A DNA stretch of 64,000 nucleotides, taken from NCBI GenBank assembly GCA_011915565.1, contig GCA_011915565.1_3920.1, one strand, 5' to 3'. The DNA comes from a phage. A program made the position numbers and the translations under genes. Below are positions 9,621-47,193 of this stretch, in pieces. The notes under the pieces are model-generated. The model saw nothing but the letters and a program-made list of their open reading frames with translations, searched no databases and was not told the origin of the DNA. Every line of letters starts with the position of its first letter. The first letter of the stretch is position 1.

Positions 9621-9819
9621 ACGCCTTTGGGAAGGTTTGGTTGTTGATGCACCAGCTATTGTGATTGGTATGCTTGTTGTTAACCTATTTACTGATTTTG
9701 AACAAGGTTCATTGTTTGGGGCCATGTTACTATGGGTTATCTTTGAAATATTAGAGATACAGCTAGGCATCACTGAAAAACTGAGAAAACTCGTTTCTAA
9801 GTTTTCTAAAAAGATTTAA
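9613..9819 (+). CDS. small membrane protein
   Basis: 68 aa with two hydrophobic helices; followed by terminator. Confidence 0.45.
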   Translation: MLKRLWEGLVVDAPAIVIGMLVVNLFTDFEQGSLFGAMLLWVIFEILEIQLGITEKLRKLVSKFSKKI

Positions 9820-30413: not shown

Positions 30414-30479
30414 AAACCTATACATTCACCTTATAAACACTGATTAACCCCTTACAGGGGCTTTTAGAGGGCTTAAATC

Positions 30480-32580: not shown

Positions 32581-34235
32581 TTACGTCTATAAAGAGACTC
32601 TATACAGTCCCTTTCCTTTCCTTCCTAGAATCTATCCCACTAATTCGATAGAGACTATCTCATACCTTAAAAAGCAATAACTCTATAGTCTACTCTATAA
32701 CCTCTTATCAAATCAACTTAAATATAAGCCCATAACCCGAAAGGGAAGGGCAACCACTAAAACGCTCTATAAAGCTCTATAACAGCCTTATCAACCTAAC
32801 TTAAGCAATCATATTAACCCACTCTAAAAAGCCCTTTATAGAGCTTCCCAGAGCCTTAAAAGAATCTTATAAGGGTGTAAGCTTTATCATCTCGTTAGTA
32901 TTCTTGTGAATAACTAAAAAGGGATTGGTAGTTCCTTTAAAGTATGTTATAGGGGCTATAAAGTTACTCAAAAGTTACGTAAAAGAGGCTATAAAGTTAC
33001 GTGATAGATAGCTTAAAAGTTACGTAAATGCTAGCCCCCTTAACATTTTCTTAACAATTTCTTAACAATCCCTACATAGTTATGCTTTTAAGGCACTTGT
33101 TAGAGACTTGTTAGCCCTTGTTAAATCTCTGTTAAGACCACGTAAAAGCCTTGTAAGAGTCTTTGACATAGCCTTAAAAGCCTCTGTAAAGCCCTATAAA
33201 GAGCTATCCATACAGTTGAGGGGTAGATACTAGGAAGAGATTTAAAAGAGCTTATAAAGAGTTATAGAGAGCTTTTAAGAGGTATGTTTAAGAGTTCACT
33301 AAGAAAGGAAAGGGAATGATAAGAAAAGAGATAGTGACCATGCTAATAGCTTGTTAAAAAGATTAAACACTTGTTAGAAACTTGTTAATTATCTTAACAA
33401 AATAACTCTTTAAAATTAACTTGTTAACTCTTGTTAGTCATCTGTTAAGCCTCTGTAAAGTCTATGTATCAACTGTTAAGAAACTGTTACATCCCTGTTA
33501 GTTCTGTTAAGAATCTGTTAAGACCTCTGAAGAGATGTTAAGAGAATGTAGTAGCTGTTAAGAGATTGTTAAGGATATTTTAAAATTTTGCAAAGTACTT
33601 GTAAGGGAGCTGTTAAGGGCTACCAAGCAGATATACATCCTAATCAGATATTTTTGAGTTCCTTCAAAGACCCTAAAAAATGACTTGATAGTCCTATTTT
33701 ATAAAAATTTTAAAAATCTGAATAATTACCTAGACAGTCTTTTAAAAATACAGGTAGAAACAGGCTTATAAGATACCTTGTTAGTACCGTGTTAGACCTT
33801 GTGAGATAAGGTCTGTAAAGATATTCCTGTTAAGTTTGTTAAAACAGTCTATATAGAGGCTTAGTAGTGCCTAGTGAACACCTATAGAGGGTAACATAGC
33901 TGACATAGAGATTAAGGGGTGTATAGAGGCTTCTAAGAGCGTATAGAGAGATGGTTAAGGTGATTGTATAGGTTGTTAAGAAGGCTTGTTAGAAGAGTGT
34001 TTAGAGGGCTTATTAAAGGGCTAGTTAGAAGGGTTATACAGAGGGCTATTAAGACCACTAGATAGTTACTAAGATACTATATAGTACTATATAACTATAT
34101 AGAGAGTAAGATTAAGGAGGTTGTTAAGAAGGATAGATATTTTGTTCACATATGATGGTGACCCAGAGGTTGGGACAACCGATAAAATTTTATAAAAATT
34201 AAAAAGCCCCCGATTAAGGAGGCTCTTAAGATATT
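32581..34235. repeat. 1.65 kb ORF-free repeat-dense region between convergent gene blocks
   Basis: No 60-aa ORF in any frame; dozens of short motifs (CTGTTAAG, CTTGTTAG, YTATAAAG, TATAGAG); in 33420-33620 the TGTTA cores recur at about 10-bp multiples. Confidence 0.7.
34196..34226 (-). terminator. candidate intrinsic terminator (minus strand)
   Basis: Reverse complement gives AGCCTCC-TTAATC-GGGGGCT followed by TTTTT, just downstream of the 34236 gene end. Confidence 0.45.
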
Positions 34236-42567: not shown

Positions 42568-43983
42568 ATGAGCGAATTATTTAAACATGCGCACCTTCAT
42601 GCAGGTCGAACTGAAAATGGTGCTGTAAACCATACTTCATCAATGTCTGCTCTTGTAGACTTTTACAAAGCTGCTGGTTCAAGCCGTAGCAATGTAGAAA
42701 TCTTACCAGACCTGTTCTACAAAGCTTTGCGTGAGGATGTTGATGTTGCAGTTCGTATTTTACTGCATATGCGAGATGTACGAGAAGGTATGGGTGAGCG
42801 TAAGGCCTTCAGAACTGTTTTACTTCAAGCGATTGAAGACAAAGTTTTAGAGCCTACGCAGGTTCTTCGCATTATGGATAAGGTTGCAGAACTTGGTCGT
42901 TTTGATGACTTCAAAATCTTCGTAGGTACTCGTTTCGAGACAGATGCCTTCAAGCATTTAGAAGCAGCATTACTAGACCCTGCAACAGCAGGTTTGGCGG
43001 CTAAGTGGTTACCACGAGTCAAACCACGTCATAAGCAGTTTGTAAAACGTTTCTGCAAGTTTGCCAACTTGAGTGAGAAAGAGTACCGCACACTGTTGTC
43101 TGCACTATCTGATACAGTTGAGCAAAAAATCTCTGCTAATGAGTTTGGTAAGATTGATTACAGCAAGATTCCTTCACTTGCTGCTGCACGTTACCAAAAA
43201 CTCTTTAACCGTAAAGATGGGGAACGTTACAAAGCTTACATTGAGTCTTTATCAAAGGGCGAGGCTAAGATTAATGCTGGTGCTGTTTACCCATACGATG
43301 TGATTAAATCTGTTAAGTATGGTAATGCAGATGTTGCTAATGAGCAGTGGAAAGCACTACCAAACTGGATGGCAGAAGGTGAAAACATCCTATGTATGAC
43401 TGATGTTTCAAGCTCAATGTATTGGGTGAATTTTGGTTCAATCACTGCACTTGATATTGGTGTATCACTTGCCTTGTATGTAGCAGAACGCAATACAGGT
43501 TGCTTTAAGGATGAGTTGATGGTTTATTCAACAAACCCTCACTTCATCGAACTGAGTGGTGATTTACGAAACCGTCATCGTCAGGTGATGCGACACGTTG
43601 AATATGGCTCAACCAACTTACAAGCAGCTTTTGACCGCATTCTTGAAACAGGTAAAAGAAACAACTTGACTCAGAAAGATATGCCAAGTAAGCTTATCAT
43701 CTTCTCCGATATGGAGTTTAATCAGGTTGATGGTGCTAATGGTCGTACAAACTTCGAAGCAATTCGAGATAAGTACGAAAAAGCTGGATATGAGATGCCA
43801 CAACTGGTATTCTGGTACTTAGCAAACCGTAATGGTACTTGCGAAGTATCTATTAAGGATAACGGTGTAGCAATGGTATCTGGTTTCTCTCCAGCCACTT
43901 TAAAAGCTTTGCTTGGTGGTGAGAAGTTTGACCCAATCAGCGTAATGCTCAAAGCAGTAATGATTGACCGTTACATCTGGTAA
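42568..43983 (+). CDS. von Willebrand factor A (vWA) domain protein with N-terminal helical domain
   Basis: 471 aa; MIDAS-like DVSSSM at about residue 280; domain order resembles Ro60/TROVE or DUF2828-type proteins (inference). Confidence 0.7.
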   Translation: MSELFKHAHLHAGRTENGAVNHTSSMSALVDFYKAAGSSRSNVEILPDLFYKALREDVDVAVRILLHMRDVREGMGERKAFRTVLLQAIEDKVLEPTQVLRIMDKVAELGRFDDFKIFVGTRFETDAFKHLEAALLDPATAGLAAKWLPRVKPRHKQFVKRFCKFANLSEKEYRTLLSALSDTVEQKISANEFGKIDYSKIPSLAAARYQKLFNRKDGERYKAYIESLSKGEAKINAGAVYPYDVIKSVKYGNADVANEQWKALPNWMAEGENILCMTDVSSSMYWVNFGSITALDIGVSLALYVAERNTGCFKDELMVYSTNPHFIELSGDLRNRHRQVMRHVEYGSTNLQAAFDRILETGKRNNLTQKDMPSKLIIFSDMEFNQVDGANGRTNFEAIRDKYEKAGYEMPQLVFWYLANRNGTCEVSIKDNGVAMVSGFSPATLKALLGGEKFDPISVMLKAVMIDRYIW

Positions 43984-44315: not shown

Positions 44316-44392
44316 GACAGAAGACCAATTACAGCAAACTTAATCTTATTCATCTGAAGGTAAATCGGACAAAGAAGAGATTTGGTCTGGTC
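44316..44392 (+). other. tRNA-spacer structured element, copy 1 (CAGAAGACC...GGTCTGG)
   Basis: Conserved CAGAAGACCAATTACAGCAA head and TTGGTCTGG tail forming a 7-bp closing stem. Confidence 0.5.
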
Positions 44393-44401
44393 ATTAAGAA
44401 T

Positions 44402-44480: not shown

Positions 44481-44550
44481 TTTACAGAAGACCGTTTACA
44501 GCAATACTTATTAAATTTTTAGCGGAAAAATTGAAAGATACGGTCTGGTA
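44481..44550 (+). other. tRNA-spacer structured element, copy 2
   Basis: TTTACAGAAGACCGTTTACAGCAA...ACGGTCTGG. Confidence 0.5.
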
Positions 44551-44561
44551 ATACTAAACAT

Positions 44562-44875: not shown

Positions 44876-44952
44876 AGCAGAAGACCAAATACAGCAAGAA
44901 TGTATGAAATTTCAAGCCAATTTAATTTTGAAAATTTAAAACTTGGTCTGGC
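44876..44952 (+). other. tRNA-spacer structured element, copy 3
   Basis: GCAGAAGACCAAATACAGCAA...CTTGGTCTGG. Confidence 0.5.
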
Positions 44953-44963
44953 TCAACAAATTT

Positions 44964-45098
44964 ACAGAAGACCGTTTACAGCAAAACTTAAACAATCTAT
45001 TTCTCCGGTAAAGAAAAGGCGAAGGTTCGATTCCTTCACTCGGCAGATGTCGAGTTGGTGTAATGGTAGCACTTAAGATGATAAACAACGGTCTGGTA
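44964..45098 (+). other. tRNA-spacer structured element, copy 4, containing a degenerate tRNA-like segment
   Basis: TTTACAGAAGACCGTTTACAGCAA head; T-arm-like GAAGG-TTCGATT-CCTTC, hairpin ACTCGGCA/TGTCGAGT, D-arm-like TGGTGTAATGGTAGCAC, then ACGGTCTGG. Confidence 0.45.
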
Positions 45099-45239
45099 AT
45101 TATCTTTGTAGATAAGTTATTAAGCTTACCTGTGAGTATGCGACCACAAAGGGTGAAGGGTAAATTCTAGATTTAAACCCAAAAGGCACATCGCTACAGA
45201 CCTTAAGCAAGTCTGGGTAGCTTATCTACAAAGATAATT
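45098..45239 (+). other. perfect 19-bp inverted repeat enclosing 104 nt
   Basis: AATTATCTTTGTAGATAAG at 45098-45116 and its exact reverse complement at 45221-45239; lies between spacer element 4 and tRNA-Lys. Confidence 0.6.
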
Positions 45240-45595: not shown

Positions 45596-45797
45596 AACCT
45601 TAGTTTTCGTTGCGTAGCGTCTATTTTGCAAATTTAAAATAAATGCAAACGACAATGTTTTTCTGGCAGTAGCTTGATAGGCTAAACACCAGTGAGGTCT
45701 TCCAATCCCTCATCAAAGAATTTGGCGTACTCGCCCACGGTATGATTAATAAGGTGGGCATCTTTAAGGGCTTTCTAAGAGAGTCTTTAAAGATAAT

Positions 45798-45874: not shown

Positions 45875-46016
45875 AATAGTTAGCAGATTACTTAGACGGC
45901 CTTAGCGGGTCTTCCTGTAGGGAGGTGGTCTGTATCTCATGTTTTCCAGAACATGTAAATAATCTGAGAAGAAGCTTGACAGTGTTGAGATAACAGGGTA
46001 AGCTTCGAATTATAAT

Positions 46017-46099
46017 ATGGGACGATGTTAAGACTCTAAGGCATGAGCAACGGCCTCCAAAACCGTTTCAAAGGGGTTCAACTCCTCCGTCCCATGCCA
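46017..46099 (+). tRNA. tRNA-Trp (anticodon CCA)
   Basis: Acceptor ATGGGAC/GTCCCAT; anticodon loop CTCCAAA; 83 nt with enlarged D region; preceded by TATAAT. Confidence 0.55.
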
Positions 46100-46112
46100 A
46101 AGTCTTATTAGG

Positions 46113-46200
46113 GGTAGGTAGCGGCTAATGGCAGCCAAACAGTCTTGAAAACTGTTGCCACTGTAGAGATACGGTGAGGGTTCGACTCCTTTACTTACCG
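46113..46200 (+). tRNA. tRNA-Ser (anticodon TGA), long variable arm
   Basis: Anticodon stem ACAGT/ACTGT, loop CTTGAAA; type II; no CCA encoded. Confidence 0.6.
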
Positions 46201-46376
46201 CCTAATAAGATTTACTCCGTCCATGCTTGTTCGCATTGTCGGTTTATCCCTCGTGTATTGTCGTACACTGTCAAAGCACCTAGTAGGTGTCACGGAGAAG
46301 AGATAATATCAAGCTCTCCAAAGGTTCTAGTCACCGGATTAAACAAGACTATGCAAAGACCTATTTAGGTCTTTTT
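46201..46376 (+). ncRNA. candidate structured non-coding RNA ending in an intrinsic terminator
   Basis: No ORF; long-range complementarity (ACTCCGTCC ... GTCACGGAGAAG); ends with AGACC-TATTT-AGGTCT plus TTTTT at 46355-46376. Confidence 0.4.
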
Positions 46377-46456
46377 AGAGGGCTTCTAAGGTTATTAGTC
46401 GCTTGTTGTGGAACCTTGTTGCTCAGGTTCTTAGAAGTTCTCTAAAAAGATTTAAT

Positions 46457-46533
46457 GCACCTATAGCCCAACTGGTAGAGGCAGCAGACTTAGAATCTGC
46501 TCAGTGTGAGTTCGAATCTCTCTAGGTGTACCA
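46457..46533 (+). tRNA. tRNA with TAG anticodon (Leu by anticodon; short variable arm)
   Basis: Acceptor GCACCTA/TAGGTGT; anticodon stem GCAGA/TCTGC, loop CTTAGAA; 77 nt, type I. Confidence 0.55.
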
Positions 46534-46540
46534 AATTAAT

Positions 46541-46616
46541 GCAGGTGTAGCAAAATGGTTATGCGGCTGACTCTTAATCAGTAAGACGATGGGTTCAATT
46601 CCCTCCACCTGTACCA
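46541..46616 (+). tRNA. tRNA-Lys (anticodon CTT)
   Basis: Paralog of the 45244 tRNA; anticodon loop CTCTTAA. Confidence 0.55.
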
Positions 46617-46622
46617 AACAAT

Positions 46623-46698
46623 GGGGTCATAGTTTATATGGTTAAAATTCGAGTTTTGCAAACTTGGGAACCGAGTTCAATTCTCGGTGACTCCACCA
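46623..46698 (+). tRNA. tRNA-Ala (anticodon TGC)
   Basis: Clean 76-nt cloverleaf: GGGGTCA acceptor, GTTT/AAAT D-stem, loop TTTGCAA, T-arm CCGAG-TTCAATT-CTCGG. Confidence 0.7.
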
Positions 46699-46704
46699 AT
46701 TAGT

Positions 46705-46779
46705 GCATCCATAGTTTAAACGGGAAAATTACAGTCTTCCAAACTGAGGTTGAGGGTTCGATTCCCTCTGGATGCTCCA
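46705..46779 (+). tRNA. tRNA-Gly (anticodon TCC)
   Basis: Acceptor GCATCCA/TGGATGC; anticodon loop CTTCCAA. Confidence 0.65.
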
Positions 46780-46786
46780 AATTAAT

Positions 46787-46862
46787 GCTCCTATCGTATA
46801 ATTGGTTATTACGGTTGCCTTGTAAGCAACTTATCAGGGTTCGAGTCCTTGTGGGAGCACCA
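46787..46862 (+). tRNA. tRNA-Thr (anticodon TGT)
   Basis: Anticodon stem GTTGC/GCAAC perfect, loop CTTGTAA; T-arm CAGGG-TTCGAGT-CCTTG. Confidence 0.7.
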
Positions 46863-46892
46863 ATTCAGAGGTCAAGTGAAAGACCGCTTTGA

Positions 46893-46950
46893 GTCAACTG
46901 AAGACCGTAACAAATTCCACGGAGTTGAGTTAGCGGCACAACTCCAGACC
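46893..46950 (+). other. tRNA-spacer structured element, diverged copy 5
   Basis: CTGAAGACCGTAACAAATTCC related to the CAGAAGACC head; enclosed by AGAGGTC/GACCTCT inverted repeat. Confidence 0.4.
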
Positions 46951-46958
46951 TCTTTCAT

Positions 46959-47033
46959 ACTCGCTTAGTTTATATGGTAAAACATCACCCTTACAAGATG
47001 AAGAAAAAGGTTCAAGTCCTTTAGTGAGTACCA
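46959..47033 (+). tRNA. tRNA-Val (anticodon TAC)
   Basis: D-stem GTTT/AAAC; anticodon loop CTTACAA; T-arm AAAGG-TTCAAGT-CCTTT. Confidence 0.65.
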
Positions 47034-47034
47034 T

Positions 47035-47112
47035 GTTCCAGTATCCCAATTGGCAGAGGATGCAAGCTCAAACCTTGTATTAGTGACGGTTCGAATCCGT
47101 CTTGGAACACCA
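47035..47112 (+). tRNA. tRNA with CAA anticodon (Leu by anticodon; short variable arm)
   Basis: Acceptor GTTCCAG/TTGGAAC; anticodon stem GCAAG/CTTGT, loop CTCAAAC; T-arm GACGG-TTCGAAT-CCGTC. Confidence 0.55.
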
Positions 47113-47117
47113 ATTTT

Positions 47118-47193
47118 GCAGGATTAGTTCAAATGGAAAGAGCAACAGTCTACGAAGCTGTTAATAGGGGTTCGAATCCCTTATCCTGCGCCA
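47118..47193 (+). tRNA. tRNA-Arg (anticodon ACG)
   Basis: Clean 76-nt cloverleaf; anticodon stem ACAGT/GCTGT, loop CTACGAA. Confidence 0.7.

What the first reader, a model, noticed from the sequence alone, without database searches (positions are those of the whole stretch)
46201..46376. Candidate structured non-coding RNA with its own terminator inside the tRNA array
About 175 nt after tRNA-Ser(TGA) contain no credible ORF (the overlapping 64-aa track ORF begins inside the tRNA), show long-range complementarity (ACTCCGTCC ... GTCACGGAGAAG) and end in a clean intrinsic terminator (AGACC-TATTT-AGGTCT plus TTTTT). The region downstream (46380-46455) carries CTTGTTG / GGTTCTTAGAAG motifs reminiscent of the 32.6-34.2 kb repeat region.
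Basis: seen in the sequence. Interest (0 to 1): 0.5.

Follow-up and report, generated by a model that had tools for sequence, protein, structure and literature searches.

The report
Conserved small RNA inside phage tRNA array
Between two tRNA genes of this Felix O1-like phage lies a non-coding RNA element of unknown function that is conserved as tightly as the tRNAs themselves, is often mis-annotated as a small protein, and sits in an array that also holds a Ro60-like protein gene and a tRNA-mimicking Y-RNA-like gene.

Summary
The window is a Felixounavirus, 100% identical here to Escherichia phage fjerdesal. The flagged interval is the spacer between tRNA-Ser(UGA) and tRNA-Leu(UAG).

The element is real and non-coding. 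A core of about 130 nt (46249-46378) is 94-100% identical across Felixounavirus, Suspvirus, Mooglevirus and a more distant metagenomic lineage, where neighbouring protein genes are only 67-86% identical. It forms four small hairpins (P1-P4) plus a terminator-like hairpin (P5), preceded by a hairpin (P0) whose sequence varies but whose structure is kept. Every stem substitution in 39 distinct sequences preserves pairing. Both candidate ORFs are broken in relatives.

The "clean terminator" is weak and overlaps a 26-bp helix (P6, 46365-46455). P6 is strongly supported by covariation and ends one base before tRNA-Leu.

No Rfam family, T4 rnaC/rnaD, E. coli genome or GTDB bacterial or archaeal genome matches the core.

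Context: the gene at the head of the array (42568-43983) has a predicted Ro60 fold. A YrlA-type tRNA mimic lies at 44999-45079.

Best reading: a stable small RNA matured from the tRNA transcript, function unknown. It is a new member of the phage "tRNA-cluster small RNA" kind.

The parts
46203..46214 (+). Conserved AU-rich trailer of tRNA-Ser (UAAUAAGAUUUA). tRNA-Ser has no encoded CCA. This is the likely site of endonucleolytic 3' processing that would create the 5' end of the spacer RNA (inferred).
   Evidence: Nearly invariant in all aligned relatives. Its role as a processing site is an inference from general tRNA-operon maturation.
46215..46244 (+). P0: a hairpin of variable sequence but conserved structure, followed by a short U-run.
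   Evidence: Unrelated sequences in the different clades. All 7 variants tested fold into one hairpin of -7 to -15 kcal/mol.
46249..46354 (+). Conserved core with four hairpins. P1 is 46253-58/46263-68. P2 is 46276-81/46285-90. P3 is 46294-98/46315-19, with an inner 46302-04/46308-10. P4 is 46328-32/46347-51. The loops and linkers are invariant, for example CAC, AAGGU and ACCGGAUU.
   Evidence: 46274-46340 is 94-100% identical where flanking protein genes are 67-86% identical. In 39 distinct sequences 99.8% of stem cells are paired and all one-sided changes are wobble-compatible; P4 has one compensatory U-A to C-G change. The covariance model matches 46250-46378.
46355..46376 (+). P5: terminator-like hairpin AAAGACC / GGUCUUU with a U-run ending at 46376.
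   Evidence: -8.7 kcal/mol, z -3.5. The loop varies in length and sequence, while stem changes are only A-U to G.U and C-G to U.G. Not listed by the terminator scan. In the L034 lineage the U-run is UUUGU.
46365..46455 (+). P6: 26-bp leader helix (arms 46365-46390 and 46430-46455) with a 39-nt apical region carrying the conserved YUUGUUGCU. It overlaps the P5 3' arm and U-run and ends 1 nt before tRNA-Leu.
   Evidence: Found as inverted repeat I1. -37.6 kcal/mol, z -6.2. 97.4% of cells paired, 7 pairs changed on both sides, 0 of 500 shuffles reach the observed values, and slid controls give 34-63% paired. The many G.U pairs would be mismatches on the - strand.
46457..46533 (+). tRNA-Leu(UAG), the first of eight closely spaced tRNAs for which no sigma70-like promoter was found downstream of P5.

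Best explanation
The interval encodes a clade-specific structured small RNA, transcribed on the + strand as part of the tRNA array.

Proposed maturation (inferred). The 5' end comes from processing in the conserved AU-rich trailer of tRNA-Ser. The variable hairpin P0 then protects that end. The 3' end comes either from leaky termination at P5 (about 46376) or from cleavage within or behind the 26-bp helix P6, which resembles an RNase III substrate, together with RNase P cleavage at tRNA-Leu +1.

P5 and the base of P6 are mutually exclusive. When P5 forms, the last ~11 nt before tRNA-Leu are single-stranded, as RNase P prefers. Read-through must be frequent, because no sigma70-like promoter was found for the next eight tRNAs.

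The invariant loops and linkers of P1-P4 point to sequence-specific recognition by a protein or another RNA. My best guess at the role is a trans-acting stable RNA belonging to the phage's RNA-centred module, which comprises a Ro60-like protein, a YrlA-like tRNA mimic and the tRNAs.

Shown: conservation, non-coding nature, strand, and helices P5, P6 and P0. Inferred: transcript ends, the processing enzymes and the function.
For: - Conservation equals or exceeds that of the flanking tRNAs and far exceeds that of the protein genes.
- The core is present, with the same neighbours, in 254 GenBank phage records, 27 IMG/VR contigs and 20 metagenome stretches. It is also present in a lineage whose Ro60-like protein is only 63% identical.
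- Across 39 distinct sequences, every substitution in stems P1-P5 keeps a standard pair, apart from one non-standard cell at the base of P5 in the L034-type sequences. P4 has a compensatory change.
- Variation concentrates in the linker, the P3 and P5 loops and P0.
- The G.U pattern and the P6 covariation place the structure on the + strand RNA.
- Both ORFs are broken in relatives and substitutions show no third-codon-position bias.
- No sigma70-like promoter was found between 46013 and 47393 on the + strand.
- Precedent: T4 annotates rnaC and rnaD, small stable RNAs, within its tRNA cluster.
Against: - There are no expression data, so no transcript ends are known.
- The core alone is not unusually stable (z -0.6) and is so invariant that only one true compensatory change supports P1-P4.
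- P5 is a weak terminator, and its U-run is interrupted in the L034 lineage.
- Nothing links the core physically to the Ro60-like protein. More distant phages with that protein lack the core.
- The same data fit a purely cis-acting element.
Confidence: 0.5

Rival explanations
1. The element acts only in cis. The core plus P5/P6 would be an attenuator and processing platform that sets how much transcription reads from the tRNA-Arg/tRNA-Ser unit into the eight-tRNA block, and that organises cleavage of the precursor. The invariant loops would bind a phage or host factor such as an antiterminator or RNase. No stable trans-acting RNA would result.
For: The core sits immediately upstream of a terminator-like hairpin whose 3' arm has a conserved alternative partner. 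No promoter was found for the downstream tRNAs. Similar long hairpins end just before tRNA-Lys (45098-45119 with 45218-45239) and tRNA-Arg (45760-45794), and share the 3'-arm ending AAAGAU..AAU. The linkage tRNA-Ser / core / P5 / P6 / tRNA-Leu is never broken in any relative.
Against: The alternative partner of P5 lies downstream, so it cannot influence the termination decision co-transcriptionally. The other leader hairpins function without any core-like element. Sequence invariance of about 70 nt, including the loops, is more than a spacer or processing signal usually needs. No known riboswitch or leader family matches.
Confidence: 0.3
2. It is a second Y-RNA-like partner of the phage Ro60-like protein, analogous to YrlB or Yrl2. 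It would tether or gate that protein alongside the YrlA-like RNA encoded 1.2 kb upstream.
For: The gene at 42568-43983 has a predicted full-length Ro60 (TROVE + vWA) fold. Its Bas63 homologue gp130 was reported as Ro60-like and as a counter to the Ppl defence system, and the authors suggested that Y RNAs might lie among the tRNAs (PMC11482910). The core is on the same strand, 2.3 kb downstream. Known Ro60 systems often have two or more Y RNAs (PMC4201824, PMC12135203). The L034 lineage lacks the YrlA-like unit but keeps both the core and the Ro60-like gene.
Against: The core has no closing stem between its 5' and 3' ends, no GNCGAA/CGAA motif and no T or D arm. Distant phages with the same protein family carry YrlA-like modules but no core.
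Confidence: 0.12
3. It is a DNA-level signal, such as a homing-endonuclease target, protein operator, promoter or replication signal, or it encodes a micro-peptide of about 26 aa from the GTG at 46287.
For: HNH or other endonuclease ORFs come and go in this array. The arms of P6 share words with an iteron-like region at about 34 kb. One frame stays open across the core in most relatives.
Against: G.U-only substitutions and the strand-specific pairing argue for RNA. The linker between P1 and P2 varies in length by up to 7 nt, so no fixed promoter spacing exists. A 1-nt deletion (L031) and a premature stop (L004) break the frame, there is no Shine-Dalgarno sequence, and there is no third-position bias. 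Variable flanks on both sides rule out simple recent co-conversion.
Confidence: 0.06

Closest known systems
Phage T4 small stable RNAs rnaC (species 1) and rnaD (species 2)
   Same: Non-tRNA small RNA genes embedded in a phage tRNA cluster on the tRNA strand, with a homing endonuclease gene in the same cluster. That their function is still unknown and that species 1 is an RNase III substrate in vitro come from my own knowledge.
   Different: No sequence or structure homology. nhmmer and the covariance model find nothing in the T4 tRNA locus. T4 rnaC carries a tRNA-like T arm; the core here does not.
Bacterial and phage Y RNAs of the YrlA type, partners of Ro60/Rsr
   Same: Encoded near a Ro60-type gene on the same strand. 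Modular, multi-hairpin, about 100-150 nt (PMC4201824).
   Different: The core lacks the closing 5'/3' stem, the GNCGAA motif and the T/AS/D tRNA-like domain. Those features are present in a different element of this window, at 44999-45079.
Intrinsic terminators and attenuators, and RNase III processing hairpins of phage and rRNA/tRNA operons
   Same: P5 is an A-tract / hairpin / U-tract element on the transcribed strand. P6 is a double-stranded RNA helix of 20 bp or more lying between two mature RNAs.
   Different: P5 is short and GC-poor. The alternative pairing partner lies downstream of the terminator rather than upstream, as it would in classical attenuators. Cleavage by RNase III is untested.

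Membership tests
Intrinsic (Rho-independent) terminator | Stable G+C-rich stem-loop on the transcribed strand | tested here: inconclusive
   8-bp stem with only 3 G-C pairs, -8.7 kcal/mol. The stem is conserved with a variable loop. Not listed by the consensus scan.
Intrinsic (Rho-independent) terminator | Run of U's immediately after the stem | tested here: inconclusive
   UUUUU in 37 of 39 distinct sequences, but three of the U's can pair with the upstream AAA. The L034 type has UUUGU. The U-run is kept even where its P6 partner is C, giving a mismatch in 7 of 15 sequences.
Intrinsic (Rho-independent) terminator | Transcripts end there | not testable with these tools
   Needs 3'-end mapping. 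No sigma70-like promoter was found for the 8 downstream tRNAs, which argues that termination is at most partial.
YrlA-type Y RNA | Encoded near a Ro60 orthologue on the same strand | tested here: met
   The Ro60-fold protein gene is at 42568-43983 on the + strand. The core starts 2.3 kb downstream on the + strand.
YrlA-type Y RNA | T-arm / closed acceptor-like hairpin / D-arm tRNA-like domain | tested here: not met
   No tRNA-like hit in 46203-46456 with ARAGORN or Rfam. Model R2 of that domain hits 44999-45079, not the finding.
YrlA-type Y RNA | 5'/3' closing stem with the GNCGAA(N)G Ro-binding motif | tested here: not met
   No CGAA in the conserved core. The closing stem of the minimum-energy fold is not conserved and conflicts with P4.
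T4 rnaC / rnaD | Sequence or structure homology | tested here: not met
   No nhmmer or cmsearch hit in T4 69000-75000.
T4 rnaC / rnaD | Non-tRNA gene inside a phage tRNA cluster, same strand | tested here: met
Any Rfam 15 family (riboswitch, ribozyme, sRNA, leader) | Covariance-model match | tested here: not met
   The gathering-threshold scan finds only tRNAs. The E-value scan gives only chance-level miRNA and sRNA hits driven by the long hairpin.
Small protein-coding gene (FelixO1 ORF102, wV8 gp51, bas63_0145) | Reading frame conserved, with a synonymous-biased substitution pattern | tested here: not met
   The ORF64 frame has a stop at codon 4 in most relatives. The ORF52 frame is cut by a 1-nt deletion, by a stop, and by indels in the P5 loop. 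Substitutions fall 6/2/4 on codon positions 1/2/3.
RNase III processing helix (P6) | About 20 bp or more of largely uninterrupted double-stranded RNA between mature RNAs | tested here: met
   26 bp, 97.4% of cells paired, 7 pairs with double changes.
RNase III processing helix (P6) | Cleavage by RNase III | not testable with these tools
   Needs an rnc mutant host or an in vitro assay.

The most novel reading that the evidence does not exclude
The invariant core is a new class of phage regulatory RNA that works with the Ro60-like protein and the YrlA-like tRNA mimic encoded in the same array. It could act as a second RNP component or decoy that helps the phage protect or mature its tRNAs and escape an RNA- or tRNA-directed host defence (the Bas63 Ro60-like gp130 counters Ppl). 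Alternatively, it could be a factor-binding switch that meters read-through into the distal tRNA block.
Probability: 0.2. Interest if true: 0.75.

Novelty: new member of a known kind. Interest (0 to 1): 0.5.

Why it matters
Felix O1-like phages are widely used for typing, biocontrol and therapy, yet this element is either unannotated or called a hypothetical protein (FelixO1 ORF102, wV8 gp51, bas63_0145). An RNA conserved as tightly as tRNAs across several genera is almost certainly functional.

It lies in an array that also encodes a Ro60-fold protein, already tied experimentally to defence evasion in Bas63, and a YrlA-type tRNA mimic. That makes a concrete, testable system for a long-open question: what non-tRNA RNAs in phage tRNA clusters do. 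The question has stood since T4 species 1 and 2.

At minimum, the result corrects annotation and defines exact targets for mutagenesis.

Tried and rejected
- Rfam at gathering and E-value thresholds: no family for the core.
- Homology to T4 rnaC/rnaD: none.
- Host mimicry: no blastn match in 5,426 E. coli genomes. The 6 pattern hits in GTDB genomes are about the number expected by chance, in unrelated organisms. Three metagenome pattern hits were also chance.
- More distant homologues: nhmmer and covariance model R1 found nothing in about 80 loci of phages carrying the same Ro60-like family.
- Other copies of the core in the window: none.
- The multibranch closing stem of the minimum-energy fold: not conserved, and it conflicts with the covarying P4.
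- Promoter reading of the core: the linker length varies.
- Coding readings: rejected.
- Tracing P2 (GCACCUA-G-UAGGUGU) to the acceptor stem of the window's tRNA-Leu allele: noted, but a 7-mer match near by is only weakly significant and the rest of the core does not align to the tRNA.
- A kissing interaction between the P4 loop (ACCGG) and the V loop of the YrlA-like RNA (CCGGU): not conserved in other clades.

Full report
**Identity and setting**

The 561 bases around the finding are 100% identical to Escherichia phage fjerdesal and 95-99.8% identical to many other Felixounavirus genomes. The window carries 26 tRNA genes on the + strand between 44149 and 49368. The finding is the 254-nt spacer between tRNA-Ser(UGA), 46113-46202, and tRNA-Leu(UAG), 46457-53. 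Some GenBank records annotate a hypothetical protein here: FelixO1 ORF102, wV8 gene 51 and bas63_0145. Most annotate nothing.

**Checking the observation**

The hairpin AAAGACC-UAUUU-GGUCUUU lies at 46355-46374, followed by U's to 46376. It folds at -8.7 kcal/mol with z -3.5. It has only three G-C pairs, and the terminator scan did not list it.

The ORFs overlapping the interval are a 64-aa ORF that starts inside tRNA-Ser and a 52-aa ORF from a GTG at 46287.

However, its 5' half lies in a segment that is replaced by unrelated sequence in other clades, and the minimum-energy fold does not use it.

The downstream 'motifs' are in fact the two arms and the loop of a 26-nt inverted repeat, 46365-46390 with 46430-46455. 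This repeat includes the terminator's 3' arm and U-run and ends one base before tRNA-Leu.

**Comparative anatomy**

Homologous spacers occur in 254 GenBank phage records from Escherichia, Salmonella, Shigella and Citrobacter phages of the genera Felixounavirus, Suspvirus and Mooglevirus. They also occur in 27 IMG/VR contigs and 20 metagenome stretches. One further homologue sits in a Logan contig (L034) whose neighbouring Ro60-like protein is only 63% identical to the window's.

The alignments divide the spacer into these parts:
- A conserved AU-rich trailer, 46203-46214.
- P0, 46215-46244. Its sequence differs between clades, but all seven variants tested fold into one hairpin of -7 to -15 kcal/mol followed by a U-run.
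- A core, 46249-46354, with hairpins P1 to P4.
- P5, the terminator-like hairpin.
- P6, the 26-bp helix, whose apical region carries a conserved YUUGUUGCU.

**Conservation**

Against four divergent relatives, 46274-46340 is 94-100% identical. The flanking tRNAs are 87-99% identical. The Ro60-like, DUF7217 and DUF7338 genes are 67-93% identical. The flanks on both sides (P0 and the distal part of P6) are variable. The invariance is therefore purifying selection on the core, not recent co-conversion.

**RNA or protein**

In the 64-aa frame, most relatives have a stop at codon 4. The 52-aa frame is open across the core in most sequences. It is shifted by a 1-nt deletion in L031, stopped early in L004, and ends at different places because the P5 loop differs in length. 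The twelve variable columns inside it fall 6/2/4 on codon positions 1/2/3. That is not how a protein evolves.

**RNA structure**

Among 39 distinct core sequences, 99.8% of stem cells are standard pairs. Every one-sided change keeps a standard pair: G.U to A-U, A-U to G.U, C-G to U.G and G-C to G.U. P4 (UAGUC/GACUA) shows a compensatory U-A to C-G change in the L034-type lineage. Of 64 paired columns 12 vary, against 33 of 73 unpaired columns. The unpaired variation sits in the P1-P2 linker and in the P3 and P5 loops.

The core is so invariant that covariation support for P1-P4 is thin, and its folding energy is unremarkable (z -0.6).

P6 is well supported. It has 97.4% of cells paired and seven pairs changed on both sides. 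None of 500 shuffles reaches the observed values, and slid controls give 34-63% paired. In L034 the arms read CUUUGUAGAUGGCUAC and GUAGCCAUCUACAAAG, against CUUUUUAGAGGGCUUCUAAG and CUUAGAAGUUCUCUAAAAAG in the window. The many G.U pairs would be A.C mismatches on the other strand, so the selected structure is the + strand RNA.

**P5 versus P6**

The P5 3' arm and the U-run form the base of P6, so the two cannot form fully together. Both show signs of selection:
- The P5 5' arm changes only in wobble-compatible ways while its loop drifts in length and sequence.
- The base pairs of P6 also change only compatibly.
- The U-run is kept as UUUUU even where its P6 partner became C, giving a mismatch in 7 of 15 sequences. 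In L034 it became UUUGU, which restores pairing.

The promoter scan found no sigma70-like site on the + strand between 46013 and 47393. If that is right, the eight tRNAs from 46457 to 47193 depend on read-through of P5, and P5 can only be a partial terminator.

When P5 forms, the last ~11 nt before tRNA-Leu are unpaired. Full P6 buries them up to position -2. This is an inference from the structures.

**What it is not**

- No Rfam family matches.
- There is no similarity to T4 rnaC or rnaD.
- There is no second copy in the window.
- There is no match in E. coli genomes.
- GTDB genomes give only chance matches.
- Covariance model R1 finds the core only in the Felixounavirus, Suspvirus, Mooglevirus and L034 clade. 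It finds nothing in about 80 loci from more distant phages with the same neighbouring gene family.

**Context that bears on function**

*The Ro60-like gene.* The gene just upstream of the array, 42568-43983, matches Pfam DUF2828 + DUF7788 and PHROG 850 'RNA-binding protein'. Its AlphaFold model (pLDDT 89.5) has Ro60/Rsr/TROVE structures as its twelve best PDB matches over its full length. These include the Ro60 of Thermus phage phiLo (E about 1e-8 to 1e-6; TM 0.5-0.66 for most).

Its Bas63 homologue is bas63_0130. It was reported as Ro60-like and as a counter to the Ppl defence system, and the authors speculated that some 'tRNAs' might be Y RNAs (PMC11482910).

*The YrlA-like module.* I found such an RNA, but not at the finding. 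At 44999-45079 there is a module made of:
- a V hairpin;
- GGCGAAG;
- a T arm, GAAGG-UUCGAUU-CCUUC;
- a closed acceptor-like hairpin;
- a D arm, GUGU-AAUGGUA-GCAC.

This is the architecture described for YrlA (PMC4201824). The acceptor-like hairpin has three unrelated sequences in three clades, and all of them pair. The module is enclosed by a bulged stem, AGACCGUU with AACGGUCU.

A model of the module (R2) finds the same arrangement on the same strand next to DUF2828 genes in five distant phage loci. In 27 of 46 such loci, tRNA or tmRNA genes lie within 6 kb, always on the gene's strand.

*Consequence for the core.* The core shares none of the YrlA features, so it is not a YrlA. It could still be a second partner RNA. 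L034 lacks the YrlA-like unit yet keeps both the core and the Ro60-like gene. But the distant phages have the protein without the core.

**Verdict**

The finding is a real, conserved, non-coding element that behaves like a structural RNA gene. I commit to a stable small RNA matured from the tRNA-array transcript, with a protective 5' hairpin, a recognition core and a leaky terminator-like 3' hairpin. The 26-bp P6 would act as the processing and insulating helix for the next tRNA. I put this at 0.5.

A purely cis-acting attenuator and processing platform is the main rival, at 0.3. The Y-RNA-partner reading is at 0.12 and overlaps in mechanism with the best explanation. DNA-level or peptide readings are at 0.06.

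It belongs to the known kind 'small non-tRNA RNAs in phage tRNA clusters', but it is a new, undescribed member.

Noticed in passing
window 42568-43983 (+): The 471-aa protein at the head of the tRNA array matches Pfam DUF2828 + DUF7788 and PHROG 850. Its predicted structure matches full-length Ro60/Rsr (TROVE + vWA), including the Ro60 of Thermus phage phiLo. It equals bas63_0130 (gp130), reported as a counter to the Ppl defence system. Sequence search of the PDB finds nothing, so the family is a very divergent Ro60.
   Followed up: yes
window 44963-45097 (+), core module 44999-45079: A YrlA-type Y-RNA candidate (permuted tRNA mimic): V hairpin, GGCGAAG, T arm, closed acceptor-like hairpin with three covarying sequence versions, and D arm, enclosed by the bulged stem AGACCGUU/AACGGUCU. 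ARAGORN does not call it, and it scores below the Rfam tRNA threshold (24 bits). In Bas63 it is overlain by two minus-strand 'hypothetical protein' CDSs (bas63_0137 and 0138).
   Followed up: yes
L072:10389-10465, L035:9982-10068, L046:5579-5661, L099:7422-7498, L066:7968-8051: The same T-arm / closed-acceptor / D-arm module lies on the same strand next to DUF2828 Ro60-like genes in distantly related phage contigs whose proteins are 39-57% identical to the window's. In 27 of 46 such loci, tRNA or tmRNA genes lie within 6 kb, all on the gene's strand. Four loci carry a tmRNA gene.
   Followed up: partly
window 44318-44398, 44485-44556, 44878-44955, 44965-45097 (+): Four units share the stem CAGAAGACC(NN)...(NN)GGUCUGG, with covarying extensions (AA/UU or GU/AC). 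All four CAGAAGACC words and four of the five GGTCTGG words in the 64-kb window are here. The 5' arm also looks like a -35 box plus spacer (TTGACA or TTTACA). These could be Ro60-binding stems or small Y-like RNAs. L034 keeps three of them.
   Followed up: partly
window 45098-45119/45218-45239; 45760-45776/45778-45794; 46867-46873/46947-46953: Long hairpins that close 4-8 nt before tRNA-Lys(UUU), tRNA-Arg(UCU) and tRNA-Val. Their 3' arms end in ...AAAGAU(N)AAU, like P6. The tRNA-Lys hairpin (22 bp around 98 nt) recurs with different sequence in L034 (9280-9421) and in Yersinia phage P778 (L036:10495-10656).
   Followed up: partly
window 46019-46093 (+), with TATAAT at about 46011-46016: An aberrant tRNA-like gene: acceptor and T arm are present, and there is a 9-nt 'anticodon' loop containing CCA. 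ARAGORN does not call it, and Rfam gives 23 bits. It is annotated as a pseudo tRNA-OTHER in wV8. A -10-like TATAAT sits just upstream.
   Followed up: no
L001:742-1134, L002:959-1363, L005:993-1397 versus window about 46094-46112: Felix O1, SUSP1 and wV8 carry a ~400-nt ORF at the same position between the tRNA-like gene and tRNA-Ser, annotated as an HNH endonuclease in SUSP1 and as unknown or hypothetical in Felix O1 and wV8. The window lacks it.
   Followed up: no
window 46457-46533; L023 and L032 (alignment): Two very different alleles of tRNA-Leu(UAG) circulate in the clade (GCACCUAUAGC... and GGGAGAUUGAC...), independently of the upstream spacer type. In L023 and L032 the second allele is interrupted after GGGAGATTGAC by an insertion starting ATGGCACGTAG..., probably a homing-endonuclease ORF or an intron. 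P2 of the core (GCACCUA/UAGGUGU) equals the acceptor stem of the first allele.
   Followed up: no
window about 33900-34100, 30465: An iteron-like run of TTAGAAG / TAGAGGGCT / TTAAGAAGGCT words. TAGAGGGCTT occurs only at 30465, 34002 and 46376 (in the P6 5' arm). This may be a protein-binding or origin region.
   Followed up: no
window 9799-9819 (+): AAGTTTTCTAAAAAGATTTAA matches 20 of 21 bases of the P6 3' arm. It is followed by ATG and a strong terminator-like hairpin, GGGTCTCTTCGGAGACC followed by TTTTT.
   Followed up: no
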